Assembly: GCA_964498135.1 (NCBI GenBank)
Contig: CAZCGG010000001.1
Span: 3,371 to 67,370, forward strand
DNA: 64,000 bases
Direction: 5' to 3'
From: an uncultured Candidatus Moduliflexus sp.
GTDB lineage: Bacteria > Moduliflexota > Moduliflexia > Moduliflexales > Moduliflexaceae
Positions 726 through 62,184 of the stretch are shown here, piece after piece; the stretch's first letter is position 1; every line of letters begins with the position of its first letter. Made by a program: the position numbers and the translations under genes. The notes beneath the pieces are model-generated. The model did no database searches. It had not been told where the DNA came from and was given only the letters and a program-made list of their open reading frames with translations.

Positions 726-830
726 AGTTTCGCTGAGGGTTCTCAGCGAGAAAATAAACGCCTGAAAAGATCGGCATGTTAGAATAACCGGCATCATTCA
801 ATCGTGTGTAAGGCTGGAGAGGGCGACATC

Positions 831-1925: not shown

Positions 1926-1940
1926 AAAGGACGCGGGGGT

Positions 1941-2321: not shown

Positions 2322-2392
2322 GAGGATGTCATTCCGCATGCGCCGCGTGAGCGAGACGCCGGACGCAGCCGTCGGCAGGCGTCCGAAGCCGT

Positions 2393-2890: not shown

Positions 2891-3024
2891 GCGAGCAGGG
2901 AAAACTGGAACATACACACCGTTACGATGTCTGACAACCCAACAAAGACGAAGACGCCAGAGAAAAGAGGGCATCCCACGAACGGTGCCGTTTTTTCTCC
3001 GAGTTCTTTTCTCTTTCAGCGCGA

Positions 3025-5115: not shown

Positions 5116-5121
5116 CCGCCG

Positions 5122-8891: not shown

Positions 8892-8945
8892 TGCGACTCT
8901 CTCCCCCGCCCGCCGAACTCACATTTTTGTAAAAAATCCTGATTT

Positions 8946-9467
8946 TTGCGACTTTTTGCTTGCTATATGGAAGAGAATGGAGTAAGTTTAGTCTGTTTTG
9001 AAATTTGCGGCGAGAAATTCGCCTTTGATTTGGAATATCTCGTTGAAATTGTTCGCGTTCAGCCGTCAGAAATCACGCCGTGGTATTCGCCTGTGCCGAT
9101 TATTCGGGGAAAATGGGAATATCGCGGGCAAACGGTCTCTATCATAGACCTGCGGGAATTCTTTGGATTACAGCCGACTGCGGAACAATCTCCGCAGAAC
9201 GCGACGCCGGAACAGGGAGCGAAAAATATTCTGGTCATCAGCGTCGAAGACCAGACGTTTGGCTTGCTGACGGATAAAGTCCTGCACATGCAGCCCCTGA
9301 GTTCCTATTACGAATATCCCGCGTTCATTTCACATCTGCCGCGCCGCTATTTCGGAGGCGTAACGATGCGCGAGGCGGAATTAGTGATTCTGTTGGCGGT
9401 TGAAAATTTCGTGAGCGCGTATGAATTGGACATCCTCTCTGGTGACGCGGAGACGGAAGGCGCATGA
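8946..9467 (+). CDS. second CheW-like coupling protein
   Basis: CheW-like fold (VCFEICGEKFAFDLEYLVEIVRV...IIRGKWEYRGQTVSIIDL); start codon uncertain (TTG 8946 or ATG 8967). Confidence 0.65.
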   Translation: MRLFACYMEENGVSLVCFEICGEKFAFDLEYLVEIVRVQPSEITPWYSPVPIIRGKWEYRGQTVSIIDLREFFGLQPTAEQSPQNATPEQGAKNILVISVEDQTFGLLTDKVLHMQPLSSYYEYPAFISHLPRRYFGGVTMREAELVILLAVENFVSAYELDILSGDAETEGA

Positions 9468-9559
9468 ACGCTTGCCGCCGCGACGGGCGCGAGGCGACGC
9501 TGGGAACTCGTCTCGGAACGCCTCATCGAAACGGTTGACGGGCATGGGAGAAAAACGAT

Positions 9560-10762
9560 ATGGCGCAGAAAATACTTATTGCCGATGATCAAATTGCTTC
9601 GCGGCGCATGTTCGAAATGGTGCTTTCCCGCGAAGGGTACGATGTCATTTCTGTCAGTTCCGGCGCGGAGGTCTTGGAAACGGCGACGAAAAAACGCCCG
9701 GATATTGCGCTGATTGACGCGGTTATGCCGGGAGTGGACGGCTATCAGGTCTGCGAATCGCTGAAAAAACATCCGAACTTCAAGACGCTGCCGGTCATTT
9801 TGCTCGCCGGAAAATATGAAGCGTTCGATAAAGAACGCGGGGTGAAAATGGTCGGAGAGCAAGCCATTCTGAGCAAACCGGCGACTTCCGGCGACATTCT
9901 TGCCAAAGTGCAGCAACTGCTCGCCGAGCAATCCAGACAGGCGCAGATAGCGAAAGAGATGCCGGCCGCGCAGGCGAAAGTCGTCGAAGAGCCGCCCGTC
10001 GTGCAGGAAGAATACGAATTTGACGAAGATTCCGAAGAAGCTGATTTAGTCGTGGAAAGCGAAATTCTCGAAGAAGGCGAAATTTTCGATGTTGAAGAAG
10101 CGCCGCAGGATACCGAAGATTTCACGATTTCCGAAAATGCCGCGCAAGCGGAAGAAGACCTTGAAGTAGAGGAAGAAATTCTGGAAGAGGCTGATGAAGG
10201 CGAAGAACCGGCGGTCGCCGAAAAACCAGAGGAAACAGAAGAACCCGAAGAAGAAGCAGATATCGAGGAAACGCCGGAGGCGGAGATCGAGGAAGAAATC
10301 GCCGACATCGAAGAGGAAACGCTCCCCGAAGACGAAATGATTATGGAAGAAGAGCCGGAAGCCGAAGAAGAAATCGAAGAAATTGCGGAACTCGGCGAGA
10401 TGCAGGCGGAAGACATCAAGGAAGAAGTCATCGAAGCAACGCCGGCCCCGCAGCCGTTCGTCGCGCCGACAGTGACGATGCAGACCGTCGTGACGCCGCC
10501 CGCCGCGCCAAAAGTTGCGCCGCAGATCGCGCCAAAACCGGCCAAAGTCGAGGCGATGCCAGAAATTTCCGACGAAACACTTGACATGCTGACCGAGCAA
10601 ATCGCACAACGGTTAGCCGGAAAACTTGTCCCGGCGTTAATGCAGGAAATCTCCGCCTATTTACTGCAATTCCCGGCGGTCACTGCCATCGTCGAGCAGA
10701 CCAGCAAACGCTTGGTGAAAGACCTGTTGCCGGAAATTCAACACTCACGAACGAACGCCTGA
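9560..10762 (+). CDS. response regulator: REC domain, ~150-aa polyglutamate/acidic linker, C-terminal domain of unknown function
   Basis: KILIADDQIASRRMFE...ALIDAVMPGVDGY...LSKP canonical REC; residues ~140-300 almost entirely E/D/A/I; last ~100 aa non-acidic, helical, unrecognised. Confidence 0.8.
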   Translation: MAQKILIADDQIASRRMFEMVLSREGYDVISVSSGAEVLETATKKRPDIALIDAVMPGVDGYQVCESLKKHPNFKTLPVILLAGKYEAFDKERGVKMVGEQAILSKPATSGDILAKVQQLLAEQSRQAQIAKEMPAAQAKVVEEPPVVQEEYEFDEDSEEADLVVESEILEEGEIFDVEEAPQDTEDFTISENAAQAEEDLEVEEEILEEADEGEEPAVAEKPEETEEPEEEADIEETPEAEIEEEIADIEEETLPEDEMIMEEEPEAEEEIEEIAELGEMQAEDIKEEVIEATPAPQPFVAPTVTMQTVVTPPAAPKVAPQIAPKPAKVEAMPEISDETLDMLTEQIAQRLAGKLVPALMQEISAYLLQFPAVTAIVEQTSKRLVKDLLPEIQHSRTNA

Positions 10763-49605: not shown

Positions 49606-51483
49606 CTAATTTTCCGCAAGCGGCAGGCGAATGTTAAAAATCGTTTTTTCCGCGCTGGCGCACGTGATGATGCCTTGATGCGCCTCAATGATATGCTGGC
49701 AGATGGACAGGCCGAGTCCGGTATTTTTCTTGCCGAGTTTCGTGCTGAAAAATGGATCAAAAATTTTATCCATGACTTCCGGCGGAATGCCCGATCCGTT
49801 ATCCGTCACCGCCAATTCGACATAACCTTCTTCATGTCGCGCATTCAGGGCAATCTCAATCGTTCCCGCTTCCGCAACCGCATCAATGCTGTTGACGACA
49901 AGGTTCATAATCACTTGCTTGAGTTGATTTTCATCCCCGATAATCGGCGCGTCATCGGCATTCTGCGTTCGTAGCAGCGCGATCTGCTTTTCTTTGAGCT
50001 TATGATTGAGCAGCAACAGCGTTTCATCCAACACCGCCGCCAAATTCACGCGCTTCATCGGCAGTGTTTTCCGCCGCGAAAACGACAGCAGACTTTCGAC
50101 AATCCCGCTGATGCGCTGAAGCTCGTCTTCGACTTTGCTCAATTTCTGCTGGCTGTCGTCATCTATCGCGGGTTTGCGCTTCAGTAGCGTGATGTAATTT
50201 TGAATAATGCCTAACGGATTGTTGATTTCGTGCGCAACCCCCGCCGCCACTTCCGCGACGGACGCGATTTTTTGCACGCGCAACAGATATTCATTAAAAT
50301 AGCGTTCCTGCGATACGTCGGCGATAATAATAATCGTGCCGAGAAATTTATAATCCTCGTCTTTGAACGGAAAAATTTGGATTTTCAGGATTTTTTCTTG
50401 TCCATATTTCACGTCATCCCACGCTTCTTCTTCCTGCCGGGAAATTTTTTCCAGAATTTCCGCCGCGTGTTCAATGGAATTGGCGGGGAAAATGGACTGC
50501 ACGCCCTGCCGAAGCATCGCCTGCTCATCAAGGCCGAGAATCCGCGCCGCCGCGTAATTGGCAAGATATACGACCTGCTCAGGATCGAGAATAATCACGC
50601 CTTCCGGCAGATTTTTAATGATATTTTCATTATATTTTTTCAGCAGATACAGTTCCCGGTTGTCGCTTTCCAACTCCTCGCGGCTCATGACAAAGGAATA
50701 GGTCAGCTTAATCAATTTCACTCGGTCGAGATCGCGGACTTCCTCCGTCCCGCGCAAATAGCCGTTATGCAGGATCGTCACGCGGTCGGCAAAGCGAAAA
50801 ATTTCGTCCATGTCGTGCGAAATGTAAATCACGCTTTTGCCCTGTTCTTTCCATTGAAACAGCAGTCGGTAAATGATTTCCATTTCTTCCGGCGTGAACT
50901 TGTTAGCGATTTCATCAAAAATCAACACGTTCGGATCAATGGAAAGCACTTTTGCCAATTCCACGACATGCTGCGCCGCTTCGGAGAGCATTTTAAGCGG
51001 AATGTTCAACGGAATTTCAACGCCAATCAGCGCGAAAATTTCTTTCGCCCGCGCCGCCATTTGACGATCTTTCAGCCAGCCCCAGCCATTCGCAATATCT
51101 CGCCCAGTGAAAATATTTTCCACGGCGGTCATGGTTGGAATAAGCTGGCTTTCTTGATACATCACGCCGATTTTATGCTTGAGAGCTAATTTCGGGGTAA
51201 AATATTCGAATTTCTGGCCGTCGAACCAGATGTCGCCGCGCGCTTTGCGCACCGCGCCGCTCAGCAGCTTGACTAACGTTGATTTTCCGGCGCGGTGTTC
51301 GCCGACCAATCCATGAATTTCGCCGCGATACAGGTCAAAATCCACCCCTTTCAGGATGTGATATTCCCCGTAATATGCATGAATATTTTTCATGGACAAC
51401 AGAGGCGTGTCGCGTTCGTTTTTTTCCATTTGGATATTGAGAAACTCTATTTCTGTGAGAAACTGAATTTCTCCGCGCCGCAA
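49606..51483 (-). CDS. sensor histidine kinase with N-terminal ABC-transporter-type ATPase (NBD) domain: NBD-PAS-HisKA-HATPase_c fusion
   Basis: N-terminal ~240 aa resemble RbsA/MglA NBD1: Walker A GEHRAGKST, Q-loop MYQESQL, signature LSEAAQHVVELAKVL, Walker B LIFDE, H-loop YISHDM. Then PAS, HisKA H-box AHEINNPLG, and N/G1/G2 boxes (NLVVNSIDA, DNGSGI, GLGLSIC). TTG start 7 nt after regulator stop (alternative ATG 51429). Confidence 0.8.
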   Translation of the reverse strand: MRRGEIQFLTEIEFLNIQMEKNERDTPLLSMKNIHAYYGEYHILKGVDFDLYRGEIHGLVGEHRAGKSTLVKLLSGAVRKARGDIWFDGQKFEYFTPKLALKHKIGVMYQESQLIPTMTAVENIFTGRDIANGWGWLKDRQMAARAKEIFALIGVEIPLNIPLKMLSEAAQHVVELAKVLSIDPNVLIFDEIANKFTPEEMEIIYRLLFQWKEQGKSVIYISHDMDEIFRFADRVTILHNGYLRGTEEVRDLDRVKLIKLTYSFVMSREELESDNRELYLLKKYNENIIKNLPEGVIILDPEQVVYLANYAAARILGLDEQAMLRQGVQSIFPANSIEHAAEILEKISRQEEEAWDDVKYGQEKILKIQIFPFKDEDYKFLGTIIIIADVSQERYFNEYLLRVQKIASVAEVAAGVAHEINNPLGIIQNYITLLKRKPAIDDDSQQKLSKVEDELQRISGIVESLLSFSRRKTLPMKRVNLAAVLDETLLLLNHKLKEKQIALLRTQNADDAPIIGDENQLKQVIMNLVVNSIDAVAEAGTIEIALNARHEEGYVELAVTDNGSGIPPEVMDKIFDPFFSTKLGKKNTGLGLSICQHIIEAHQGIITCASAEKTIFNIRLPLAEN

Positions 51484-51490
51484 GGCAAAA

Positions 51491-52810
51491 CTATATCCCT
51501 AATTTTTTCATGCGGTTATAAAGCGTTCTCCGGCTGATATTCAGCAAATCCGCCGCCTTCTGCTTCACGCCGCCGCTGCGCCCAAGCGCGTCAAGAATAA
51601 TCTCGCGGTTCAGGCTTTCAAACACTTCCTCATAGCTGCTCGTCGCCGCCCGTTGAATCAATTCCGTGTATTGCGTCGCCAAATCGTCAAGCTCAATCAT
51701 CGGATGCTCGCAGAAAATAATCGCCCGCTCCACGCAATTTTTGAGTTCACGGACATTGCCCGGCCATTGGTGCGAATGAAAAAATCGCCGCACGTCGTCT
51801 GACATGCCCTGAATCTGCTTCTGATACACCTCATTGTAATGCTTGATGAAATACTCCGCGAGCAGCAGCGCGTCGTCCTGCCGCTCGCGCAAGGGCGGCA
51901 AGTGCATCGTCACGACGGACAGCCGATAATACAGGTCATCGCGGAACGTCTGCTCTTCAATCATTTTTTGCAACGGCTTATTTGTGGCGGCGATAATCCG
52001 AATATCGGCTTTCAGCGTTTTCGAGCCGCCCACGCGCTCAAATTCCCGCTCTTGAATCACGCGCAGAATTTTGGCCTGCGTCCGCAAGCTCATGTCGCCG
52101 ATTTCATCGAGAAAAATCGTGCCGTTGTCCGCCAACTCGAATCGCCCCTTGCGCTCTTTGACCGCGCCGGTGAACGCCCCGCGCTCGTGGCCGAAGAGTT
52201 CGCTTTCCAGCAATTCTTCGGGCAACGCCGCGCAATTCACCTTGACGAACGGCTGCGCGGCGCGGCGGCTGAGGTGGTGAATGGAATTCGCCACCATCTC
52301 TTTGCCCGTGCCGCTTTCCCCCGTAATTAAGACCGGCGCGGGCGTCGGCGCGACTTTCTCAATCGTGTGGAGAATTTTCTGCATGGACGGATCCGCCGTC
52401 ACAATCTGATGCGCGCCGGTCGGCTTGGCTTGGCGTTTCCGCTCATCTCTGACCGCCAATTCGCGGATTTCCCGCACAAGTTCCTCAAATTTAATCGGCT
52501 TGGGATAGACGTTCACCGCCCCGTATTTCATGGCGCATACCGCGTCTTCAATCGTCGGATAGCCCGTAATCATAATGACAGGGAGGGCGCGCTGCTGCTG
52601 CTTAATCGTTTTCAGCAACTCGATGCCGCCGATGCCGGGCATGCGAATATCCATGATGAGCAGGTCAATCGCATGTTGCTGAAGCAGGCGAGATGCGTCA
52701 AGCGGATCTGTCGAGTATTCCACTGCATATCCTTCAGCGCGCAGCAATTCCGAGAGGGACAGGCACATTTCAACTTCATCGTCAATCAGCAGGATCGTAT
52801 AGGGCGTCAT
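51491..52810 (-). CDS. sigma54-dependent Fis-family response regulator (REC, AAA+ sigma54-activator, HTH)
   Basis: [11 protein letters not shown]...[16 protein letters not shown]; GESGTGKE Walker A; GAFTGA motif ([19 protein letters not shown]); C-terminal [25 protein letters not shown]. Confidence 0.9.
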
Positions 52811-52845
52811 GGCAAAAAAACAGCCCGGCGGGGTAAGCCGGGCTG
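52811..52845 (-). terminator. intrinsic terminator/attenuator after hydA, T-tract abuts regulator ATG
   Basis: CAGCCCGGC-GGGGTAA-GCCGGGCTG hairpin (52821-52845), followed on the minus strand by TTTTTTTGCC then ATG (52810). Confidence 0.6.
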
Positions 52846-52861
52846 TCGCGTGTTTCAGATG

Positions 52862-54613
52862 TTAGTCTTTTGTGTACTTCTTCTTCGGAAAATATTCCGT
52901 GTGCAGGAGCTCGTGAGCTTTGTGACTGCCCGGTTTTTCAAAGAACTCCGCATACAGGGTTTTAATGGACGGATTTTCATGCGATTTGCGAATGTCTTTA
53001 TCCGTATCCACCTGATACAACGCTTTTGTGCGCTGCTCGATGACTTCCTTCCGTTCTTCGCTGAACGGCTGACCGCCGCCGTTGATGCATCCGCCGGGGC
53101 AGGCCATGATTTCAATCACGTGATATTTCGATTTCCCTTCGCGGATGTTTTGCAACAGCGTCCGGGCGTTGCCAAGCCCCGAAGCCGCCGCGACATTCAA
53201 CTTTTTGCCGCCGAGGTCAATCGTCGTCTCGCGCACGCCTTGCAGCCCGCGCACGGCGGTAAAATTGACATCCTCCAGCGTTTTGCCGGTCGCCCATTCG
53301 TAGGCGGTGCGCAGCGCCGCTTCCAACACGCCGCCAGTCACGCCGAAAATCGCGCCCGCGCCGGTGGATTCGCCGAGTGGATTGTCGAAATCTTCTTCTT
53401 CGATGTAGCGCAGATCAATGCCGGCTTCCTTGAACATCTTCGCCAGTTCGCGCGTCGTGATCACCGTGTCAACGTCTCGCGCCCCGCTGGAGCAGTGTTC
53501 CGGGCGCGCCGCTTCATATTTCTTCGCCAAGCACGGCATGACGGAAACGACCTTCATTTCGTTCGGGCTGACGCCGATTTTCTGGGCATAGTAGGTTTTC
53601 GCCACCGTGCCGAGCATCTGCTGCGGCGATTTGCACGAAGACGGAATGTGCTTCAAATCCGGGAACTGATATTCGAAGAAATTAATCCACGCCGGGCAGC
53701 ACGACGTCAACACCGGCAGGTTTTCGTTCTTCTCAACTCGATCCAGAATCTCGCGGGCTTCTTCCATAATCGTCAAATCCGCGCCGAAATCGGTATCGAA
53801 CACGGCGTCAAAGCCGAGTTTCCGCAATCCGGCGGCGAGCTTGCGCGTCACCGGCTCGCCGAGCGGCAAACCAAATTCTTCGCCAATCGCGGCGCGAACC
53901 GCCGGGGCAATCTGCACGACGGAATGCTTCGCGTCGAAAATCGCCCGCCATGCCTGCTGCGTGGAATTGATGCCGAACAACGCGCCGGTCGGGCAAACGC
54001 TTACGCATTGGCCGCAATACGTGCAAATCGTGTCTTTCAGCGGCTTCATTTCCGCCGTGCCGACGACTGCCGGGAAACCGCGCCCGAAGCCGGTCAACAC
54101 GCCGACCGTCTGCACTTCGTTGCACATCGTTTCGCATCGGCGGCACATGATGCACTTGTCAGGCTCGCGTTTCAAGGCCATGCTGCTCTCATCATCAGGG
54201 TAGGACGATTGCGCCCCGTTGTACGGGCGCTGATTGATGCCGAATTCATACGCCAGCGCTTGCAATTCGCAATCGGTGGATTTCGGGCAGACTAAGCAAT
54301 CGAACGGGTGATCGGAAAGCAGCAGTTCCAGAATTTTCCGGCGCGACCGCAGCACGCGGCGGGAATTCGTCGTAATCTTCATCCCTTCAAACACCGGCGT
54401 GGCGCACGCGGGCGCAAGATTGCGGCGGCCTTCGACTTCGACCACACAAATTCGGCACGACGCCACCTTGTTGACCATTTTCAATTCTTCAAGATTCAGA
54501 TAGCATAAGGTCGGGATATGGATATGCACCTGTTTGGCGGCGTCCAAAATCGTCGTCCCCTCTTTGACCGCTATCGGCTGTTTGTCAATCGTGATATTTA
54601 CCATGTTTTTCAA
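52862..54613 (-). CDS. hydA: [FeFe]-hydrogenase catalytic subunit HydA (N-terminal 2Fe-2S and 4Fe-4S domains plus H-cluster domain)
   Basis: H-cluster motifs L1 TSCCPAW, L2 MPCLAKKYEA, L3 EIMACPGGCINGGGQ; NuoG-like N-terminus with Cys clusters. Confidence 0.92.
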   Translation of the reverse strand: MKNMVNITIDKQPIAVKEGTTILDAAKQVHIHIPTLCYLNLEELKMVNKVASCRICVVEVEGRRNLAPACATPVFEGMKITTNSRRVLRSRRKILELLLSDHPFDCLVCPKSTDCELQALAYEFGINQRPYNGAQSSYPDDESSMALKREPDKCIMCRRCETMCNEVQTVGVLTGFGRGFPAVVGTAEMKPLKDTICTYCGQCVSVCPTGALFGINSTQQAWRAIFDAKHSVVQIAPAVRAAIGEEFGLPLGEPVTRKLAAGLRKLGFDAVFDTDFGADLTIMEEAREILDRVEKNENLPVLTSCCPAWINFFEYQFPDLKHIPSSCKSPQQMLGTVAKTYYAQKIGVSPNEMKVVSVMPCLAKKYEAARPEHCSSGARDVDTVITTRELAKMFKEAGIDLRYIEEEDFDNPLGESTGAGAIFGVTGGVLEAALRTAYEWATGKTLEDVNFTAVRGLQGVRETTIDLGGKKLNVAAASGLGNARTLLQNIREGKSKYHVIEIMACPGGCINGGGQPFSEERKEVIEQRTKALYQVDTDKDIRKSHENPSIKTLYAEFFEKPGSHKAHELLHTEYFPKKKYTKD

Positions 54614-54688: not shown

Positions 54689-56569
54689 TTACTTTTTGAT
54701 GATCGCTTTGAACTTACAGGTTGACATGCACGCGCCGCATTTGATGCACTTGCTCTGATCAATTGTATGCAACTGCTTCACCTGACCGGAAATGCAGTTG
54801 ACTGGGCAAACGCGAGCGCAGGCCGTGCAGCCTTTGCATTTCTCTGCCAAAATCTCATAGCGCAGCAACTTCTGGCAGACTCCGGCGGGGCAGCGTTTTT
54901 CTTCCACGTGCGCCTGATATTCGTCCATGAAATACTTCAGGGTGCTGAGCACCGGGTTCGGCGCCGTCTGACCAAGACCGCAAAGTGACGTGTCTTTAAT
55001 GATATTGGAGAGTTCTTCCAATTCCGCCAAATGTTCCGGCTTGCCGCGCCCTTCCGTAATATCCGTCAGGATTTCATGCAGGCGTTTGTTGCCGATGCGA
55101 CACGGCGTGCATTTGCCGCACGATTCGTCCACCGTGAATTCAAGGTAGAACTTGGCGATATTGACCATGCAATCTTTCGCGCTCAACACGATCATGCCGC
55201 CCGATCCCATCATTGAGCCAACCGCCGCCAAGGATTGATAGTCAATCGGCGTGTCGAGGAACTGTTTCGGGAGGCAGCCACCGGACGGCCCGCCGGTTTG
55301 CGCCGCTTTGAACTCTGCACCGTCTTTGATGCCGCCGCCGATTTCATAAATGATTTCCCGCAGCGTCGTTCCCATCGGCACTTCCACGAGGCCGACGTTA
55401 TTGATTTGGCCGGAGAGCGCGAACACTTTCGTCCCTTTCGAGGTCGCCGTGCCAATAGAACTGAACCATTCCGCGCCGTTCAAAATAATCGGCGGCACGC
55501 TGGCAAACGTTTCGACGTTGTTCACGTTTGTGGATTTGCCCCACACGCCTTCGACGGACGGGAACGGCGGTTTCGTGGTTGGCTCGCCGCGCTCGCCTTC
55601 AATGGAGTGAATCAGCGCGGTTTCTTCGCCGCAGACGAACGCACCCGCGCCGAGTTTGATTTGCAGATCGAAATTAAAGCCGGTGCCCATGATATTTTTG
55701 CCGATCAACCCGGCTTCTTTGGCTTGCGCTAAGGCGAGTTTCAGCCGTTTGATCGCCAACGGATATTCGGCGCGAATGTAGATGTAGCCGTTCGATGCGC
55801 CGATAGCATAGCCCGCAATCGCCATCGCCTCGAGGACGCTGTGCGAATCGCCTTCCATAATTGACCGATCCATGAACGCGCCCGGATCGCCTTCGTCCGC
55901 GTTGCAGATGATGAATTTTTCATCGCATTTCACAGAACGGGAAATTTCCCATTTTTTGCCGGTCGAGAAGCCGCCGCCGCCGCGCCCGGCCAGCCCGGAT
56001 TTTTTCACCGCGTCAATCACCTGTTCCGGCGTCATCTCGGTCAGCGCTTTGCCCAACGCCTGATATCCTTTGTTCGCAATATATTCTTCGATTTTTTCAG
56101 GGTTAATCAGACCGCAGTTCCGCAGGGAAATGCGCATTTGTTTTTTGTAGAACGTCATTTCCGCCTGCGTCTCGACTTTCTGTTTCAGCGTCGGTTCTTC
56201 GTACAGCAGCTTTTTCACGCGCTTTTTCTCGATGAGATGCGTCTGCACGATTTCTTCGGCATCTTCCGGCTTGACTTGGACGTAGAAGACGTTATCCGGG
56301 AAAATCTGAACAATCGGCCCTTTTTCGCAGAACCCGAAGCAGCCGGTAATGGAGACCTCCACGCTGTTCGTCAATTGCTGGTCGGCGACCGCTTGTTTGA
56401 AATTGGCGACGAGCCGCTGGCTTTCCGACGCCTGACAGCCCGTTCCGCCACAGACAAGCACCATCGTCTTCTGCTGTCCGGCGGCCTTCATATTCACGCG
56501 CGAATCGAGCAGCGACTTGACGTGATCGTATGTTCCCAATAATGCTTGATACGATGTAATCCGTTCCAT
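54689..56569 (-). CDS. hydB: NADH-binding flavoprotein subunit HydB (NuoF-like with N-terminal Trx-like 2Fe-2S and C-terminal 2x[4Fe-4S])
   Basis: 626 aa; VCGGTGCQ...CFGFCEKGP; GRGGGGFSTG FMN site; ESCGKCTPCRIG; C-terminal CPAGVC...CKGCTACARVCP...CIKCGACMSTC. Confidence 0.9.
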   Translation of the reverse strand: MERITSYQALLGTYDHVKSLLDSRVNMKAAGQQKTMVLVCGGTGCQASESQRLVANFKQAVADQQLTNSVEVSITGCFGFCEKGPIVQIFPDNVFYVQVKPEDAEEIVQTHLIEKKRVKKLLYEEPTLKQKVETQAEMTFYKKQMRISLRNCGLINPEKIEEYIANKGYQALGKALTEMTPEQVIDAVKKSGLAGRGGGGFSTGKKWEISRSVKCDEKFIICNADEGDPGAFMDRSIMEGDSHSVLEAMAIAGYAIGASNGYIYIRAEYPLAIKRLKLALAQAKEAGLIGKNIMGTGFNFDLQIKLGAGAFVCGEETALIHSIEGERGEPTTKPPFPSVEGVWGKSTNVNNVETFASVPPIILNGAEWFSSIGTATSKGTKVFALSGQINNVGLVEVPMGTTLREIIYEIGGGIKDGAEFKAAQTGGPSGGCLPKQFLDTPIDYQSLAAVGSMMGSGGMIVLSAKDCMVNIAKFYLEFTVDESCGKCTPCRIGNKRLHEILTDITEGRGKPEHLAELEELSNIIKDTSLCGLGQTAPNPVLSTLKYFMDEYQAHVEEKRCPAGVCQKLLRYEILAEKCKGCTACARVCPVNCISGQVKQLHTIDQSKCIKCGACMSTCKFKAIIKK

Positions 56570-57121
56570 TTATGCCTCCTCCTTGCTTTCCGTTTCCACC
56601 AGATATTCTTCAACGATGCCGCGAACGCTTTCCGGTTTCACTTTGCCGTACACTTTTTCATTAATCATCACGACCGGCGCAAGGCCGCATGCGCCGACGC
56701 AGCGCAGACTTTCAATAGAAAAGCGTTTATCTTCGGTCACTTCGCCGGATTTAATGCCTAACACGCGCTCGAATTCGGCCAGCACTTTTTCCGCGCCGCG
56801 CACGTAGCAGGCCGTTCCCATGCAGACGTTGATTTTGTACTGCCCTTTCGGCGTCGTTGTGAAATAATTGTAAAAACTGATGACGCCGGAGACTTCCGCA
56901 TGATGAACGCCAAAGCGCGTGGCGATGTGCAATTGAACTTCTTCGGGCAGATAGCCGAAAATTTCCTGCGCTTTGTGCAACGATTGAATCAGAAATTCTT
57001 TCTTTCTGGCCGCCTGCGGCTCAACGCCCAATTCTTCGATAAACCGGTCAAGTTCATCATAGAGCGGCTCAGGGAGAATGCGTTGGACAGGTTCCGGGTT
57101 GATATGCAGCTTGTTTAACAT
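56570..57121 (-). CDS. hydC: NuoE-like [2Fe-2S] subunit HydC
   Basis: 183 aa; CMGTACYVRG ... CVGACGLAPV thioredoxin-like ferredoxin motifs. Confidence 0.9.
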   Translation of the reverse strand: MLNKLHINPEPVQRILPEPLYDELDRFIEELGVEPQAARKKEFLIQSLHKAQEIFGYLPEEVQLHIATRFGVHHAEVSGVISFYNYFTTTPKGQYKINVCMGTACYVRGAEKVLAEFERVLGIKSGEVTEDKRFSIESLRCVGACGLAPVVMINEKVYGKVKPESVRGIVEEYLVETESKEEA

Positions 57122-57202: not shown

Positions 57203-58366
57203 TTAACAATACTCGATTGTAACATCTTTGTGCAATTCGCGCAGCAGTCGGGCTAATTGCTCCACCAGATTTTTACGAATCGAGATGCTGACGGGCAGCA
57301 GCGGATTTTGATAAAACGGGTTAATCTGCTGCCCGACTAAAAAATGCAAATCGTCGGCATACAAAATTTCCAGCGCAAGCATGGTCGCGCCGTTGATGTC
57401 GGTCGGCAAGCGGCTGTAATCGCCGCGACTCTCTTTGATATGCTCAATCGCCTTGCTGATGGTCAAAATGCCTTCCGTCAGCAGATCTATGCCGTCCAGC
57501 ACGCCGATGGGCGGCGTATCGGGCTTCAACGTGGCGAGTTCGACTTCGATGTCTTGACGCAGATAGCGGGCGACGATATTGCCCGTCGTGCCGCCGCACA
57601 CGATTTTCCGTCCGTCAAATTCCGCGACGCGCTGGGCGCAGCGTTCGTCCTCAGCGCGATCAAGCGGCGGGCCGGTGAAAATCATGGCCGAATGGCGCGG
57701 CCGGAGATACAAGCCGATGAGCGTGGCGTCATCGCCGGGCTGGCTGCCATACAGCATGTTCGTATAATCCAGCACGCGCTCCACGACGGTTTGGGCGGTA
57801 TTGACGCGGCTGTGCAGGATTTCCGCCATGAACTCCGCAATATTGTTCCAGCCCCAGCCAAAATTGAAGGTTTGCCCCAAGCCCGCATACCAGACGCCAT
57901 CGCTGACCGCCGCTAAAAAATCTCCTTCCTCCAACGTCCCTTCTCGAAGCAAGATTTTTTTGTCAAGAATGTTCAAAATCTTCGGCTCAATCTTTTGCTG
58001 AACGCCTCCGGCCTTGAAAAAGAACGTTTCAGGGTTATCGAAATTCATCACGCGGAAATGAAACGAGTGGTGGTCAATTTCAACGACCGTGAACGTGGCA
58101 TACGCGATATTGCGGACTTTGCAAATCGGCAGCGTGCCGAGAATCGTCTCCACCACGTCATACAGCGCGGCGTCGGCTTTCAGCATGGTGATGATGATTT
58201 GCGACGTGAGCGTCGCCAAAATGCTCGCTTTAATCCCGCTGCCCAGCCCATCGGACAGCACGACCCACGTTTTCGTATCCGTCCGGGCGATTTTGACTTG
58301 ATCGCCGCAGATTTCTTCCCCGAATTTGTTCAGCGATTGATACGAAATATCGAGGAAGTGGCTCAT
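57203..58366 (-). CDS. SpoIIE/PP2C-family serine phosphatase with ~150-aa uncharacterised C-terminal domain
   Basis: CGDQVKIARTDTKTWVVLSDGLGSGIKAS, SDGVWYAGLG, GDDATLIGLYL PPM motifs; C-terminal KIVCGGTTGNIVARYL... unrecognised. Confidence 0.75.
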   Translation of the reverse strand: MSHFLDISYQSLNKFGEEICGDQVKIARTDTKTWVVLSDGLGSGIKASILATLTSQIIITMLKADAALYDVVETILGTLPICKVRNIAYATFTVVEIDHHSFHFRVMNFDNPETFFFKAGGVQQKIEPKILNILDKKILLREGTLEEGDFLAAVSDGVWYAGLGQTFNFGWGWNNIAEFMAEILHSRVNTAQTVVERVLDYTNMLYGSQPGDDATLIGLYLRPRHSAMIFTGPPLDRAEDERCAQRVAEFDGRKIVCGGTTGNIVARYLRQDIEVELATLKPDTPPIGVLDGIDLLTEGILTISKAIEHIKESRGDYSRLPTDINGATMLALEILYADDLHFLVGQQINPFYQNPLLPVSISIRKNLVEQLARLLRELHKDVTIEYC

Positions 58367-58896
58367 CGCCGCAACACCTCTTGTTCGACCATTGCTCGGA
58401 GTTTCAGCAGGCTGACTTTGGTTTCCGCCGTCGCTTCGCCCAATAACCCAGCGATTTCCTGCGCAACGTGCATGTGCTTGTTCACGACCTGATTGACTTG
58501 CTCAAGCGTTTCGCGCTGAATGCGGAGCATGTCGTTCTGCTGCTGCCATTCATGCGTCAAATCAACGATAATGCAGGCGACAAAGCCTTCGTTTTTGATG
58601 GGGAAAATCACGCGGCGGGCGTATAAATGGTATTGGGGATATTCGGTTTCCGGGCATTTCACGACTTTATTCTCGCGCCACGCGGTTTGCAGATCGTTCG
58701 CATCCCCAAGCACGGCGGCGATGTCCCGATCCAGCAGATCGGCCTCCGTTTGTTTGAACATATCGCAGAATGCCGGATTGACAAGGCGGATCCGCATGGT
58801 TTGATCCACCACAACCAGCCCATTCGGGTCATAATCCCACAGCAACTTCCAGAGCGTATCGGCGGCGCGGAACGGCATGGCCGGAACTCCTTTCAT
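58363..58896 (-). CDS. stand-alone PAS-domain protein with C-terminal helical segment
   Basis: 177 aa; PAS core LVVVDQTMRIRLVNPAFCDMFKQTEADLLDRDI...; overlaps neighbours by 4 nt on both sides. Confidence 0.65.
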   Translation of the reverse strand: MKGVPAMPFRAADTLWKLLWDYDPNGLVVVDQTMRIRLVNPAFCDMFKQTEADLLDRDIAAVLGDANDLQTAWRENKVVKCPETEYPQYHLYARRVIFPIKNEGFVACIIVDLTHEWQQQNDMLRIQRETLEQVNQVVNKHMHVAQEIAGLLGEATAETKVSLLKLRAMVEQEVLRR

Positions 58897-59162
58897 GACC
58901 GGAGATGCGGCAACATCTCATTGACGAATTTTTCTTCGATATTTTGCGGACGGATGCGCGTGAACAACATCGTTTTGTATTTCAACACAATGCCATCCGA
59001 GCAGGGGCCGAGGCAGAACGCCCCTTTCAATTCAACCGTGAGGTCTAAACGATAGCGCTCAATCAATTCCTGCAATTTTGGCAGCACGTCATAGACGCCT
59101 AATTGATGGCAGGCCGATCCCATGCACACATATAAACACGCTGTTGCTGTTTCTTGTTCCAT
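58893..59162 (-). CDS. thioredoxin-like [2Fe-2S] ferredoxin (NuoE-fold, 89 aa)
   Basis: Cx4C ... Cx3C: VCMGSACHQLG ... FCLGPCSDG. Confidence 0.75.
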   Translation of the reverse strand: MEQETATACLYVCMGSACHQLGVYDVLPKLQELIERYRLDLTVELKGAFCLGPCSDGIVLKYKTMLFTRIRPQNIEEKFVNEMLPHLRS

Positions 59163-59460
59163 CTATGCCGTCCCTGCCTGCTGTTCAGGCCAAACATCGC
59201 CGTTTCGTCTCTCGTGAAAAACGCGGCGGGAAAACAGCGATTTCTTTTGCCCATTCCATAAAGAATTCTTGACTTTTTTTCGTGAACGCCGCAGAGTGAA
59301 TGCAGGAGAATGATGAGACACATTGCCATATCCCGTCATTCTTGTCAAGTCAAGAGATTGGAAAGTTGAAAATCGCCAGAAAAGGCGCGCGCATTCTCCG
59401 CGCCGATGCCGAATTTCCTCTCAATGAGAACCCTCATGACGCTCAAAGGAGGCGCTCATT

Positions 59461-61116
59461 ATGTCAATCTATCGTGCGCATGTTTTAGTTTCCACTGACG
59501 CCGAAAGCCGACTGCGCGGCGCGGAACAAGTCATTCAGCGTCTTCGGGATGAACTCGCCAAGCGCGACTTAGCCAATGAAATCATGGTCGCCGAAACCGG
59601 CAACCCCGGTCGCGGCGTCCGGCTGCCCGCCGTATTAGTCTATCCCGACGGCGTGACGTATCAGGCCATCTCGCCGGAAGACGCCGCCATCATCGTCGAG
59701 GAACACCTCTACAAAGGCCGCGTGGTCAAAGAATTTACCTCCCAACTCGCGCCGATGACCGGCAGCATCGTTCGCCTTCCCAAAGCGCATAAGCATTTTC
59801 AGGAACAGCAGAAAATCGTGCTGAAAAATTGCGGCGACATCAACCCCGAAGTGATTGAAGAATATATCGCTGTTGACGGCTACATGGCGCTTGGCAAGGC
59901 ATTAACCAACATGACACCGGCACAGACGCTTGAGGAAATCAAAGCCTCCGGGCTGCGCGGACGCGGCGGCGCGGGCTTTCCGACCGGGCGCAAGCTGGAA
60001 TTTTCGCTCGGCGTCAAAGCCGCGCAAAAATATATCGTCTGCAACGCCGACGAATCCGAACCCGGCACGTTCAAAGACCGCCTGATTATCGAGGGCGACC
60101 CGCATAAGCTGATTGAAGGGATGATCATTGCCGGCTATTGCATCGGCGCGACGCAGGGCTACGTCTATATTCGCGGCGAATACGTGCTGGCGCATGACCG
60201 CCTGCTCAAAGCCATCGAGCAAGCTCGGGAAATGGGGCTGCTGGGGAACAATATTTTCAATTCCGGGTTCAATTTCGACATTTTCGTGCATTCCGGCGCG
60301 GGCGCGTATGTTTGCGGCGAAGAGACCGCGCTGCTGAATTCGCTCGAAGGCCAGCGCGGCGAACCGCGCAAACGCCCTCCGTTCCCGCCGGTCGCCGGAT
60401 TTCACCAGATGCCGACCATCGTGAACAATGTCGAAACGCTCGCCAACCTGCCGCCGATTCTGCTGAATGGCGCGGCATGGTTCACGCGCTTCGGCACAGA
60501 AAATTCAACCGGCACGAAAGTTTATACCATGCTCGGCAACATCAACAATACCGGCCTGATTGAAGTGCCGATGGGGATTACGCTGCGCGAAGTCATCGAA
60601 TTCTACGGCGGCGGCATGAAAGATGGCCGGGCGTTCAAATTCGCCCAGACCGGCGGCAGTTCCGGCTCGATTATTCCGCAGGAATTGCAGGACGTGCCGA
60701 TGGATTTCGCGTCAATGGCGAAATACGGCGTGTCAATGGGGTCGGGCGCGCTGCTGATTTGCGATGACCGCGCGTGCGTTGTGGACGTGATTAAAGTGCT
60801 GCTCAATTTTTTCAAGGTCGAATCATGCGGCAAATGCGCGCCCTGCCGAATCGGCACGCAGCAGTTGCACGACGCGTTTGCGCGGATTGCGGGCGGCGTC
60901 GGCACGATGGACGATTTAGAGCGCGCCGCGCATGTGGGCGAGCAGATGATCAAAGCGAGCTTCTGCGGGCTTGGGCAGACCGCGCCCGCGCCGATTCTGA
61001 CAGGCTTGAAATATTTCCGCAGCGAAATCGAAGCGCACATCAGAGATCAGTATTGCGAAGCGAATGTCTGCGAATTCGAGCTTGTGAAAAAGAAAAAAAG
61101 CCCCTCCGCCAAATAG
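59461..61116 (+). CDS. NuoF-like NAD(H)/FMN-binding iron-sulfur protein paralog lacking N-terminal [2Fe-2S] Cys and C-terminal ferredoxin domains
   Basis: 551 aa; GRGGAGFPTG, ESCGKCAPCRIG...C present; N-terminal Trx-like region has no Cys; ends shortly after the SLBB/4Fe-4S module. Confidence 0.85.
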   Translation: MSIYRAHVLVSTDAESRLRGAEQVIQRLRDELAKRDLANEIMVAETGNPGRGVRLPAVLVYPDGVTYQAISPEDAAIIVEEHLYKGRVVKEFTSQLAPMTGSIVRLPKAHKHFQEQQKIVLKNCGDINPEVIEEYIAVDGYMALGKALTNMTPAQTLEEIKASGLRGRGGAGFPTGRKLEFSLGVKAAQKYIVCNADESEPGTFKDRLIIEGDPHKLIEGMIIAGYCIGATQGYVYIRGEYVLAHDRLLKAIEQAREMGLLGNNIFNSGFNFDIFVHSGAGAYVCGEETALLNSLEGQRGEPRKRPPFPPVAGFHQMPTIVNNVETLANLPPILLNGAAWFTRFGTENSTGTKVYTMLGNINNTGLIEVPMGITLREVIEFYGGGMKDGRAFKFAQTGGSSGSIIPQELQDVPMDFASMAKYGVSMGSGALLICDDRACVVDVIKVLLNFFKVESCGKCAPCRIGTQQLHDAFARIAGGVGTMDDLERAAHVGEQMIKASFCGLGQTAPAPILTGLKYFRSEIEAHIRDQYCEANVCEFELVKKKKSPSAK

Positions 61117-61539
61117 AGCTTTTATGAGCGCGCAGGCCGTACCCGGCGTGACATTTTTCGGGGAGATAATTCTGTATGCTATGGCAAGAGGTTTGCGAAC
61201 ATCCCGCGTTGCGGAATTTGCCGTTCAAGATTGAATTGAACAAACGAGGAACAATCCTTATGAGTCCGGTCAACGTGTCGCATTCGTTATTTCAAGGGAA
61301 AATCCTGATTTTGCTGAAAACGCTCTTTCACGAAGGAAGTCTGGCATTGCGCTGAAGACGGGACGCTGACCTTGTACAGTCCAGTTGGGAAAATGCCGCA
61401 TTCCAGCCTTGCGCCTGCGTTTCCGGCGAAGATCGACTTATAAAAGATTGACGCGGTGGCATGAATTTTGCTTGGAATATCCCTGACGCATCTCACTATG
61501 CACAACACAATAAACACATCTTTCAAAGAGGAACGCATT

Positions 61540-62184
61540 ATGAAACATCTGAATCGAATGGGGAACGTTTTTGGCATGCTGTTGGCCGCTCTGCTGGCCT
61601 CTTCGCAAATGGGATTGGCCTGCGAACAAGGTTCGTTTCGGGATTTCAGCGGCGCAACGGACGTTGAATTCGGCAGCGGCACGGTCTATAAATATTCCGT
61701 CATCGCGGACGGAAAATTTCAGTATGTCAAATTCAGCGCCACCGGCGGCGAACTTGGGAACACGTGGAACGAAGGGAACACCTATTATGCCGAAGTGCGC
61801 TGGACGCAAAATAGCGCGGACGATCCCTCGAAGTTGAAAGTTTATGGCGAAGACAAGTGCGGCACGATGCAGGATTTGCGCCATTTCGTCAAGCCCGCCA
61901 GCGGCGGATCGCGCGGCGCGTCCAAAGGAATTGTGCGGCTCTTTGACCAAGAATCGGGCAAAGGGAAGAGTTTTGTCGCGGCGCAAAGCCTTGAAAAGCT
62001 TGGCAACAAGTGGAATGACAAAATCCGGTCGGTCTGGGTCGGCGGCGGCGTCACGCTGATTCTGTATGAAAATTACGAGCATAAAGGCCGCAGCGTGACG
62101 CTGCGCGGCGAAGGCGAGGGCACGATGTTCAACCTCTCGTCCTACGATTTCGACAAAATCGCGTCATCGCTCAAGGTTGAGTAA
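61540..62184 (+). CDS. secreted beta/gamma-crystallin-fold protein
   Basis: ATG 61540 preceded by AAGAGGAA; signal peptide MKHLNRMGNVFGMLLAALLASSQMGLA; C-terminal Greek-key signature ...WNDKIRSVWVGGG...YENYEHKGRSVTL...FDKIASSLKVE. Confidence 0.7.
   Translation: MKHLNRMGNVFGMLLAALLASSQMGLACEQGSFRDFSGATDVEFGSGTVYKYSVIADGKFQYVKFSATGGELGNTWNEGNTYYAEVRWTQNSADDPSKLKVYGEDKCGTMQDLRHFVKPASGGSRGASKGIVRLFDQESGKGKSFVAAQSLEKLGNKWNDKIRSVWVGGGVTLILYENYEHKGRSVTLRGEGEGTMFNLSSYDFDKIASSLKVE

What the first reader, a model, noticed from the sequence alone, without database searches (positions are those of the whole stretch)
58363..59162. Sensory module without a sensory hydrogenase: orphan PAS protein plus Trx-like ferredoxin heading the hyd operon
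An 89-aa Cx4C/Cx3C [2Fe-2S] ferredoxin and a 177-aa PAS protein are translationally coupled by 4-nt overlaps to the PP2C phosphatase upstream of hydCBA. In HydS-type systems the PAS domain is the C-terminal part of the sensory hydrogenase. Here the PAS protein is free-standing with a helical tail. It could be a remnant of domain loss, or it could sense redox or a ligand through a cofactor such as flavin or haem and pass the signal to the PP2C. The small ferredoxin may supply or report electrons.
Basis: inference. Interest (0 to 1): 0.6.

Follow-up and report, generated by a model that had tools for sequence, protein, structure and literature searches.

The report
HydS-type signalling cassette lacking the hydrogenase domain
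The small ferredoxin, PAS protein and phosphatase in front of this hydrogenase operon form a widespread three-gene signalling cassette, equivalent to the output half of the "hydrogen-sensing" HydS system without its hydrogen-binding domain, and the same cassette sits inside the Hox hydrogenase operons of many cyanobacteria.

Summary
On the minus strand one operon encodes an 89-aa Trx-like [2Fe-2S] ferredoxin, a PAS-plus-helix protein (probably 171 aa rather than 177), a 387-aa SpoIIE-type PP2C phosphatase and HydC-HydB-HydA, and it ends in a strong terminator.

The PAS protein is homologous over its whole length to the C-terminal PAS-helix module of HydS sensory [FeFe]-hydrogenases (hhalign 99.2%, E 3e-19). 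The PP2C is the same two-domain phosphatase that follows HydS (36% identity, E 2e-83). Loci exist that match gene for gene, Fd-HydS-PP2C versus Fd-PAS-PP2C.

It is not an orphan or a decayed remnant. The PAS protein is 50-60% identical across phyla and was found in at least 582 species genomes. The trio sits next to HydABC, next to group B [FeFe] hydrogenases, next to NuoEF-like genes, and between hoxH and hoxW in at least 30 cyanobacterial species, including Arthrospira platensis. I found no paper describing it.

Proposed mechanism (inferred): an Fe-S redox signal passes through the PAS dimer to the PP2C, which dephosphorylates an unknown target. I rate it a new variant of a known kind.

The parts
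58893..59162 (-). Fd1: 89-aa thioredoxin-like [2Fe-2S] ferredoxin (CMGSACHQ...FCLGPC), first gene of the cassette
   Evidence: PF01257 E 7e-5. The four Cys are invariant in 66/66 homologues. It is closer to the Fd that precedes HydS or free PAS (Fd1 class) than to the Fd2 class that precedes group B hydrogenases.
58363..58878 (-). PAS + signalling-helix protein (171 aa from the ATG at 58878; the ORF also opens at the ATG at 58896 = 177 aa). It is homologous to the C-terminal module of HydS.
   Evidence: Pfam PAS_8/PAS_4. AF2 PAS core pLDDT >93 plus helices 108-170. Foldseek PAS hits. hhalign to HydS C-termini 99.2%, E 3.4e-19. The family is 50-60% identical across phyla.
57203..58366 (-). SpoIIE/RsbU-type PP2C phosphatase (residues ~1-222) fused to a family-specific alpha/beta C-terminal domain (residues ~226-387). 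The start codon overlaps the PAS stop codon (ATGA).
   Evidence: PF07228 63.5 bits. Foldseek hits SpoIIE, RsbU and RsbX. The acidic motifs GD22, SD39G, D110, SD156G and GD212D213 are invariant. The C-terminal domain occurs almost only at the C-terminus of ~380-430-aa proteins of this PP2C's length, the five checked being SpoIIE-type PP2Cs. It is 36% identical over full length to the HydS-adjacent PP2C P0259.
56570..57121 (-). HydC (NuoE-like [2Fe-2S] subunit)
   Evidence: PF01257 166 bits. It follows the PP2C gene after an 81-nt gap containing an AAGGAGG.
54689..56569 (-). HydB (NuoF-like FMN/NADH subunit with an N-terminal Trx-like domain and a C-terminal 2x[4Fe-4S] domain)
   Evidence: Complex1_51K, NADH_4Fe-4S and Fer4 hits.
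52862..54613 (-). HydA, catalytic [FeFe] hydrogenase of the NADH-dependent HydABC type
   Evidence: NCBIfam NF040763, 870 bits against a cut-off of 765.
52819..52847 (-). Intrinsic terminator closing the Fd-PAS-PP2C-hydCBA operon
   Evidence: An 11-bp stem with 8 G-C pairs followed by a T-run.
59163..59460 (.). 298-bp divergent intergenic region, the presumed promoter region of the operon
   Evidence: Read directly from the sequence. No convincing sigma-54 or Rex site was found.
59461..61116 (+). Divergent lone NuoF-like flavoprotein. It may be functionally linked; the synteny is conserved in the nearest relative.
   Evidence: Pfam/NCBIfam nuoF_fam. Same arrangement in L009. NuoE/NuoF-like pairs flank the cassette in L030, L068 and L070.

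Best explanation
The finding is the first two genes of a conserved three-gene signalling cassette: Fd1 (a Trx-like [2Fe-2S] ferredoxin), a PAS-helix protein, and a PP2C phosphatase with a special C-terminal domain. The cassette is the evolutionary counterpart of the group C sensory [FeFe]-hydrogenase system (Fd1, HydS, PP2C), except that the PAS-bearing protein lacks the H-cluster domain and its accessory [4Fe-4S] motifs.

Shown here:
- homology of all three proteins to their HydS-locus counterparts;
- gene-for-gene equivalence of the two locus types;
- strong purifying conservation;
- repeated, independently arranged linkage to NAD(P)H/ferredoxin-linked hydrogenases (HydABC, group B [FeFe], cyanobacterial [NiFe] Hox) and to NuoEF-like genes.

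Inferred mechanism:
- The cassette cannot bind H2 itself. It probably reads the redox state of an Fe-S carrier, Fd1, which would equilibrate with the hydrogenase/diaphorase electron chain or with the ferredoxin/NAD(P)H pool.
- Fd1 docks on the PAS dimer. The invariant N-cap LWxLLWDYDPNGL is specific to the free form.
- The conserved helix ...QEIAGLLGETTAETK... relays the state to the co-translated PP2C.
- The PP2C dephosphorylates a still unknown Ser/Thr-phosphoprotein that adjusts hydrogenase expression or activity, or fermentative redox balance.
For: - PAS protein versus HydS: BLASTP to L089 HydS residues 421-552, E 1e-8; to L091 HydS, E 5e-6; hhalign of the 40-sequence family against three HydS C-termini, 99.2%, E 3.4e-19, 157 columns.
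- PP2C: 36% identity and E 2e-83 to P0259, which overlaps the end of a HydS gene. Its C-terminal domain is confined to the C-terminal ~160 residues of ~380-430-aa proteins, with 889 representatives. All five whose gene context was looked up carry SpoIIE and follow either HydS or a free PAS gene.
- Matching loci: L095 is Fd-HydS-PP2C-Fd2-group B hydrogenase, and L096 and L044 are Fd-PAS-PP2C-Fd2-group B hydrogenase. L091 is HydCBA-Fd-HydS-PP2C, and the window is Fd-PAS-PP2C-HydCBA.
- Fd1: the four Cys are invariant in 66/66, and Fd1 clusters with the Fd that precedes HydS.
- Conservation and spread: 50-60% identity across Moduliflexota, Chloroflexota, Cyanobacteria, Bacteroidota, Verrucomicrobiota and others, and at least 582 species genomes.
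- Linkage in 80 species loci: 30 Hox, 10 HydABC, 1 group B and 3 NuoEF-only, in at least 6 different gene arrangements. Arthrospira platensis has hoxEF-hcp-hoxUYH-Fd-PAS-PP2C-hoxW.
- Operon: ATGA overlap, short gaps and a single terminator.
- The PP2C catalytic acidic motifs are invariant.
- The literature treats HydS-PAS plus a Ser/Thr phosphatase as a putative H2-signalling unit whose partners are unknown (PMC6776011, PMC13104023, PMC5707799).
Against: - No biochemical data exist for any member.
- The phosphatase substrate and any kinase are unidentified. None lies in the operon, among the window ORFs that were Pfam-scanned, or in the sampled loci.
- 36 of 80 loci show no hydrogenase within the available flank. 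Many are truncated contigs, but at least 8 have full 10-kb flanks, so the cassette is not strictly tied to hydrogenase genes.
- About 10 loci lack Fd1, so the ferredoxin is not obligatory.
- In a group D HydS the C-terminal cluster did not respond to H2 (PMC13104023), so Fe-S redox-state signalling is unproven even in the parent system.
- The PAS domain could bind an unseen ligand.
Confidence: 0.6

Rival explanations
1. The PAS protein is an autonomous small-molecule or cofactor sensor (flavin, haem, metabolite). Fd1 only supplies or removes electrons from that cofactor, and the HydS relationship is historical.
For: PAS domains commonly bind cofactors. The fold resembles short LOV proteins with a J-alpha helix. 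Two well conserved Cys (C38 and C102, about 90%) are specific to the free-standing family.
Against: There is no LOV NCRFLQ motif and no invariant His or Cys in the core; C38 and C102 are replaced by Ser or Ala in several members. The PAS core is small, about 88 residues. The best conserved parts are the N-cap and the C-terminal helix, which are interaction surfaces rather than pocket residues.
Confidence: 0.15
2. The three proteins are accessory or regulatory subunits physically attached to the hydrogenase. Fd1 would be a HydD-like electron-transfer subunit, and PAS-PP2C would act directly on a hydrogenase or diaphorase subunit, not on gene expression.
For: The genes are co-transcribed with hydCBA and lie between hoxH and hoxW in cyanobacteria. 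Small Trx-like [2Fe-2S] proteins are encoded in Fe-hydrogenase operons, for example in Thermotoga maritima (Pan et al. 2003, cited in PMC10055695). The link is with enzymes that share NuoE/F-type modules.
Against: The trio also occurs with no hydrogenase within 10 kb (L011, L016, L022, L056, L087), and with group B hydrogenases that have no NuoEF module. Fd1 travels with PAS-PP2C, not with the enzyme genes.
Confidence: 0.15
3. It is a general-stress or energy-stress partner-switching phosphatase of the RsbP/RsbU type, split into PAS-coiled-coil and PP2C genes. It would act on a STAS anti-anti-sigma factor, and its position beside hydrogenase genes would be incidental.
For: The PP2C is closest in fold to SpoIIE, RsbU and RsbX. 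RsbP has a PAS-coiled-coil-PPM architecture (PMC3183031). Many loci are not linked to a hydrogenase.
Against: No STAS, GHKL kinase or RsbQ-like hydrolase lies next to the cassette in the window or in the gene lists of the loci retrieved with them. Linkage to hydrogenase genes recurs in at least 6 arrangements across phyla. The PP2C carries a C-terminal domain shared only with HydS-linked phosphatases.
Confidence: 0.08
4. The PAS ORF is a non-functional leftover of a truncated hydS gene.
For: It corresponds exactly to the C-terminal part of HydS.
Against: It has an intact ORF with its own Shine-Dalgarno. It is 50-60% identical across phyla, with 21 invariant positions. It occurs in at least 582 species, always at about 165-175 aa, and is usually translationally coupled to the PP2C gene.
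Confidence: 0.02

Closest known systems
Group C putative sensory [FeFe]-hydrogenase systems (HydS of Thermotoga maritima and Ruminococcus albus; HfsB with HfsD of Thermoanaerobacterium)
   Same: The PAS-plus-helix module is homologous (99.2% hhalign). The PP2C with its unique C-terminal domain is the same and immediately follows. The same small Trx-like Fd lies immediately upstream. The location is beside catalytic hydrogenase genes.
   Different: The PAS protein has no Fer4 domain, no H-cluster domain and no PF04060 [4Fe-4S] motif, so it cannot bind H2. It has a family-specific invariant N-cap (LWxLLWDYDPNGL). The cassette occurs in phyla and contexts where HydS is not expected, such as cyanobacterial [NiFe] Hox operons. 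No HfsC-like kinase is adjacent.
RsbP (Bacillus subtilis energy-stress PAS-coiled-coil-PP2C phosphatase) and the SpoIIE/RsbU PP2C subfamily
   Same: A PAS domain and a helical linker drive a SpoIIE-type PPM phosphatase. The catalytic fold and acidic motifs match.
   Different: PAS-helix and PP2C are separate polypeptides. There is no RsbQ partner and no STAS or RsbW genes nearby. There is an extra C-terminal domain and an Fe-S partner.
Thioredoxin-like [2Fe-2S] ferredoxins (NuoE/HoxE/HydC C-terminal domain; the small [2Fe-2S] protein of the T. maritima Fe-hydrogenase operon; HydD-type subunits)
   Same: The Cx4C...Cx3C ligand pattern matches, there is a PF01257 match, the size is about 80-100 aa, and the gene lies in a hydrogenase operon.
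   Different: Fd1 forms its own subclass that travels with PAS/HydS-PP2C, not with the enzyme subunits. The window copy scores just below the Pfam threshold.
[NiFe] regulatory hydrogenase system HoxBC-HoxJ-HoxA of Cupriavidus (named Ralstonia eutropha in PMC5707799)
   Same: It is a dedicated signalling device encoded with hydrogenase genes, and its kinase component HoxJ, from my own recollection, contains a PAS domain. This is a functional analogy only.
   Different: The proteins are unrelated. That system uses histidine kinase/response regulator chemistry and contains a true H2-binding site.

Membership tests
Group C sensory [FeFe]-hydrogenase (HydS/HfsB) system | The PAS-bearing protein contains an H-cluster domain (Fe_hyd_lg_C) with N-terminal Fer4 clusters | tested here: not met
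   The 171/177-aa protein has PAS hits only. The HydS comparators carry Fer4 plus Fe_hyd_lg_C.
Group C sensory [FeFe]-hydrogenase (HydS/HfsB) system | An atypical C-terminal [4Fe-4S] motif (PF04060 FeS, CGGCGYxSC...C) precedes the PAS domain | tested here: not met
   The alignment starts after this motif. The free PAS N-terminus is LWxLLWDYDPNGL and has no Cys cluster.
Group C sensory [FeFe]-hydrogenase (HydS/HfsB) system | A C-terminal PAS domain plus a conserved signalling helix | tested here: met
   hhalign 99.2%, E 3.4e-19, 157 columns. The motif QEIAGLLGEATAE corresponds to QKIAFLLGESAAD and QEIAGLLAENAAQ in HydS.
Group C sensory [FeFe]-hydrogenase (HydS/HfsB) system | An adjacent Ser/Thr phosphatase (PP2C) gene of the HydS-linked type | tested here: met
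   36% identity and E 2e-83 over full length to P0259, which follows HydS. The C-terminal domain is shared.
Group C sensory [FeFe]-hydrogenase (HydS/HfsB) system | The system responds to H2 | not testable with these tools
   This needs biochemistry or genetics. Direct H2 binding is impossible without an H-cluster.
Thioredoxin-like [2Fe-2S] ferredoxin (PF01257) | Four Cys ligands in the pattern Cx4C...Cx3C | tested here: met
   C13, C18, C50 and C54 are invariant in 66/66 homologues.
Thioredoxin-like [2Fe-2S] ferredoxin (PF01257) | The Pfam score reaches the gathering threshold | tested here: inconclusive
   The window copy scores 23.1 bits against 24.8. A related Fd1 (L091) scores 40.8 bits.
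PAS domain superfamily | A five-stranded antiparallel sheet with flanking helices | tested here: met
   AF2 core pLDDT >93. 217 Foldseek PDB hits at E<=1e-3, and the 50 best listed are PAS or LOV structures.
LOV (flavin) or haem-binding PAS sensors | GxNCRFLQ flavin-adduct motif, or a conserved axial His/Cys | tested here: not met
   The motif is absent. No His or Cys is invariant in the 40-sequence alignment. Identity to LOV structures is 14-19%.
PPM/PP2C phosphatase, SpoIIE-RsbU subfamily | PP2C fold with conserved metal-binding Asp motifs | tested here: met
   PF07228 63.5 bits. Foldseek hits SpoIIE and RsbU at E 1e-11 to 1e-12. D22, D39, D110, D156, D212 and D213 are invariant.
Partner-switching module (PP2C + STAS + GHKL Ser-kinase) | STAS antagonist and HATPase_c_2 kinase genes lie next to the phosphatase gene | tested here: not met
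   None was seen in the operon, among the Pfam-scanned ORFs of the window, or in the gene lists of the loci retrieved with them. The rest of the genome is unseen.
RsbQ-RsbP energy-stress module | PAS fused to the PP2C, with a partner alpha/beta-hydrolase RsbQ | tested here: not met
   The genes are separate, and no hydrolase is adjacent.

The most novel reading that the evidence does not exclude
Fd1-PAS-PP2C may be a self-sufficient Fe-S/redox-responsive phospho-signalling device that serves both [NiFe] Hox and [FeFe] HydABC/group B hydrogenases across bacterial phyla. HydS would then be this device with a hydrogenase domain fused on as one optional input. On this reading the cassette is an undescribed post-translational or transcriptional regulator of the cyanobacterial bidirectional hydrogenase. 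It also shows that the long-sought HydS output pathway does not require H2 binding.
Probability: 0.35. Interest if true: 0.75.

Novelty: new variant of a known kind. Interest (0 to 1): 0.62.

Why it matters
How putative sensory [FeFe]-hydrogenases signal is an open question. A 2026 study concludes that the interaction partners still have to be identified (PMC13104023).

This cassette isolates the conserved output core: Fd1, the PAS-helix protein, and the PP2C with its special C-terminal domain. That core is a small soluble system without the oxygen-sensitive H-cluster, so reconstitution and structural work become much easier.

The cassette also sits inside the hox operons of many filamentous cyanobacteria, including Arthrospira/Limnospira and Planktothrix. 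This points to an unrecognised layer of Hox regulation, which is relevant to photobiological H2 production. The link to enzymes that share NuoE/F-type modules suggests that the signal is cellular redox poise rather than H2 itself.

Tried and rejected
- **Solved structures, by sequence:** the PAS protein gave nothing below E 0.39. The PP2C gave only weak SpoIIE/RsbX hits.
- **Literature:** nine searches with PAS, PP2C, SpoIIE, hox, HydS, Arthrospira and Anabaena locus-tag terms found no description of the cassette. The Lyngbya majuscula and L. aestuarii hox papers describe other ORFs. Zheng et al. 2014 is not held.
- **Anabaena PCC 7120:** whether its three ORFs between hoxH and hoxW are this trio could not be checked. 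A search seeded with the 'Scytonema' MAG PP2C returned no Nostocales names.
- **Promoter region:** no convincing sigma-54 or Rex motif was found in the 298-bp upstream region, and the sigma-70 scan was at background.
- **PAS-PP2C fusion proteins:** none appeared among the 150 best representatives of the C-terminal domain.
- **Cys as cluster ligands:** I considered that the two conserved PAS Cys ligate a cluster. I rejected this because both are substituted in some members.
Full report
**Observation.**

The minus strand between 59162 and 52819 carries six co-directional genes:

| Coordinates | Product |
|---|---|
| 58893-59162 | 89-aa protein with C13-x4-C18...C50-x3-C54; weak PF01257 match (E 7e-5, 23.1 bits against a 24.8 threshold) |
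| 58363-58896 | PAS ORF |
| 57203-58366 | 387-aa SpoIIE-type PP2C |
| 56570-57121 | HydC |
| 54689-56569 | HydB |
| 52862-54613 | HydA; NCBIfam 'NADH-dependent [FeFe] hydrogenase, group A6', 870 bits |

- The PAS stop codon and the PP2C start codon overlap (ATGA).
- The PP2C-hydC gap is 81 nt, hydC abuts hydB, and the hydB-hydA gap is 75 nt.
- A strong hairpin with a T-run lies at 52819-52847, directly after hydA. The six genes are therefore one operon.
- The sigma-54 response regulator (51491-52810) and the ABC-PAS-histidine kinase (49606-51483) behind the terminator form a separate unit.
The ORF opens at the ATG at 58896, which overlaps the ferredoxin stop codon. The ATG at 58878 is preceded by AAGGAG at an 8-nt spacing, and homologues are 164-175 aa. 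The protein is therefore probably 171 aa, and the Fd-PAS spacer is 14 nt.

**The PAS protein belongs to a large, strongly conserved family.**

- A search of 5.8 billion proteins returned 638 hits. The best 120 are all about 163-194 aa and are 50-100% identical.
- They come from Candidatus Vecturithrix/KSB3, Anaerolineae, Bacteroidetes, Terriglobales and many filamentous cyanobacteria.
- A 40-sequence alignment has 60% mean column identity. The N-cap (LWxLLWDYDPNGL) is invariant, and the C-terminal helix (QMKVAQEIAGLLGETTAETKVSLL) is nearly invariant.
- AlphaFold2 gives a confident compact PAS core (residues 20-106, pLDDT >93), followed by a 40-residue helix and a second helix.
- Foldseek finds short LOV proteins and histidine-kinase PAS domains at 14-22% identity.
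- There is no LOV motif and no invariant His or Cys. The two frequent Cys (C38 and C102) are substituted in some members.

**The trio is a cassette.**

- Gene neighbourhoods of homologues from a cyanobacterium, an Anaerolineae and a Bacteroidetes genome all show an 88-99-aa Fd-like gene, the PAS gene and a 386-aa SpoIIE gene in a row.
- In the 80 best loci, tblastn and ORF extraction gave all three genes in 66 cases and PAS plus PP2C in 14. Intergenic distances were mostly between -20 and +30 nt.
- The four Cys of the ferredoxin are invariant in 66/66.
- About ten loci truly lack the ferredoxin.
- The nearest relative of the window is a Candidatus Moduliflexus MAG (L009). Its PAS protein is 81% identical and its synteny is the same, including the divergent NuoF-like gene.

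**The cassette is linked to hydrogenases of different classes.**

- Of the 80 species loci, 30 (cyanobacteria) have hoxEFUYH-Fd-PAS-PP2C, most followed by hoxW and some by hypAB(F).
- Ten have HydABC in three arrangements: the cassette upstream, downstream or divergent.
- Three have only NuoE/NuoF-like genes, and one has a group B [FeFe] hydrogenase preceded by Rex.
- Thirty-six show nothing within the available flank. Many of these are truncated contigs, and three still carry hoxW/hyp genes. At least eight with full 10-kb flanks are truly unlinked.
- Arthrospira platensis has hoxE-hoxF-hcp-hoxU-hoxY-hoxH-Fd(92)-PAS(167)-PP2C(388)-hoxW.
- [NiFe] and [FeFe] enzymes use unrelated catalytic subunits and unrelated maturases. 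The shared features are the electron-carrier side (NuoE/F-type modules, ferredoxin) and the physiology.

**The cassette is related to HydS.**

- The PP2C has a confident C-terminal alpha/beta domain (residues 226-387) with no Pfam match.
- An exhaustive HMMER search with this domain alone found 889 representatives. Almost all matches lie at the C-terminus of 380-430-aa proteins, the length of this PP2C.
- Context look-ups of diverged members were decisive:

| Locus | PP2C | Gene order |
|---|---|---|
| L089 | P0259 | HydS (575 aa: Fer4, Fe_hyd_lg_C, FeS PF04060, PAS) - PP2C - 88-aa Trx-like Fd - group B hydrogenase |
| L095 | P0300 | Fd(80) - HydS(556) - PP2C - Fd(78) - group B hydrogenase |
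| L091 | P0376 | HydC - HydB - HydA - Fd(81) - HydS(652) - PP2C |
| L096 | P0254 | Fd(92) - PAS(167) - PP2C - Fd(80) - group B hydrogenase |

- The free-PAS and HydS architectures therefore match gene for gene.
- The window PP2C is 36% identical over its full length to P0259 (E 2e-83).
- The window PAS protein aligns to HydS residues 421-552 (E 1e-8) and to a second HydS (E 5e-6).
- The family profile against three HydS C-termini gives 99.2% probability, E 3.4e-19, over 157 columns. The match runs from the N-cap through the helix motif: QEIAGLLGEATAE against QKIAFLLGESAAD and QEIAGLLAENAAQ.
- The PF04060 Cys motif that precedes the PAS domain in HydS is absent from the free protein.
- The cassette ferredoxin groups with the Fd that precedes HydS (Fd1), not with the Fd2 class that precedes group B hydrogenases.

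**Interpretation.**

- What is shown: the finding is the H-cluster-less counterpart of the group C sensory hydrogenase system. It is conserved under strong constraint and is repeatedly placed next to NAD(P)H/ferredoxin-linked hydrogenases.
- What is inferred: Fd1 reports an Fe-S redox state to the PAS dimer, and the conserved helix controls the co-translated PP2C. The control would resemble the regulatory switch of SpoIIE/RsbU-type phosphatases (PMC5468089, title and abstract only). The PP2C then dephosphorylates an unknown target.
- The PP2C looks catalytically competent. The acidic motifs are invariant, and it aligns with the SpoIIE catalytic motifs GD and SDGMGNG.
- No kinase or STAS partner lies among the Pfam-scanned ORFs of the window or in the sampled loci.
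- Published work regards HydS-PAS plus a Ser/Thr phosphatase as a putative H2-signalling unit (PMC6776011). It shows regulatory phenotypes for hfsA-D (PMC5707799) and states that the interaction partners remain to be found (PMC13104023). None of these papers describes the free-standing form or its place in hox operons, and nine full-text searches found no such description.

**Rivals and limits.**

- An autonomous cofactor-binding PAS sensor is not excluded but has no sequence support.
- A role as physical accessory subunits of the enzymes is possible, but it fits poorly with the unlinked loci.
- An RsbP-like general stress role fits the fold but not the neighbourhoods.
- A decayed remnant is excluded by conservation.
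- The direction of evolution (loss of the H-domain, or fusion to make HydS) is unresolved.
- MAG taxonomy and truncated contigs limit the census.
- The fold of the PP2C C-terminal domain is unassigned. The only lead is a weak SIS-like hint (E 0.19).

**Verdict.**

This is a new variant of a known kind of system. Its interest is moderate to high because it offers a tractable core for the unsolved HydS signalling problem and an undescribed component of many cyanobacterial hox operons.

Noticed in passing
window 59461-61116 (+): A lone NuoF-like flavoprotein (551 aa) is transcribed divergently from the operon. Its N-terminal thioredoxin-like domain has lost all Cys, and it lacks the C-terminal 2x[4Fe-4S] domain of HydB. 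The same synteny occurs in L009, and NuoE/NuoF-like pairs flank the cassette in L030, L068 and L070.
   Followed up: partly
window 49606-51483 (-) and 51491-52810 (-): An unusual fusion of an ABC-transporter ATPase domain with PAS-HisKA-HATPase_c lies next to a sigma-54-dependent response regulator. Both sit directly downstream of the hydA terminator and might be a second regulator of the locus.
   Followed up: partly
window 57203-57691 (-), PP2C residues 226-387: This family-specific alpha/beta C-terminal domain has the invariant motifs GPP..D, CGGTT, PP, TEG and G...N. It has no Pfam family. The only lead is a weak SIS-like (phosphosugar-binding loop) hint at E 0.19.
   Followed up: partly
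L098 (Arthrospira platensis) 8180-10721; L001, L014, L018, L019 and others: In many filamentous cyanobacteria the trio lies between hoxH and hoxW. The Arthrospira cluster is hoxEF-hcp-hoxUYH-Fd-PAS-PP2C-hoxW. A paper notes three unnamed ORFs between hoxH and hoxW in Anabaena PCC 7120 (PMC3858816); I could not check whether they are this trio.
   Followed up: partly
L044 8981-9646 (+): In a Sedimentisphaerales MAG an ORF that looks Rex-like (redox-sensing repressor) by eye sits directly upstream of Fd-PAS-PP2C-Fd2-group B hydrogenase. The identification rests on the reading of the translation only; no domain search was run.
   Followed up: no
L095, L096, L044, L089 (Fd2 genes): A second subclass of small Trx-like ferredoxin (78-97 aa) immediately precedes group B [FeFe] hydrogenase genes. 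It is distinct from the Fd1 that precedes PAS or HydS.
   Followed up: partly
window 804-8891 (+): A chemotaxis-type cluster is present: a double-REC protein, an MCP with HAMP, a CheA-CheW-REC hybrid and CheB.
   Followed up: no
window 61468-62184 (+): A 238-aa protein has a C-terminal beta/gamma-crystallin / peptidase-inhibitor I36-like domain.
   Followed up: no
window 52367-54295 (+): A 642-aa ORF lies antisense to hydA. It is almost certainly a spurious shadow ORF of the G+C-rich coding strand.
   Followed up: no
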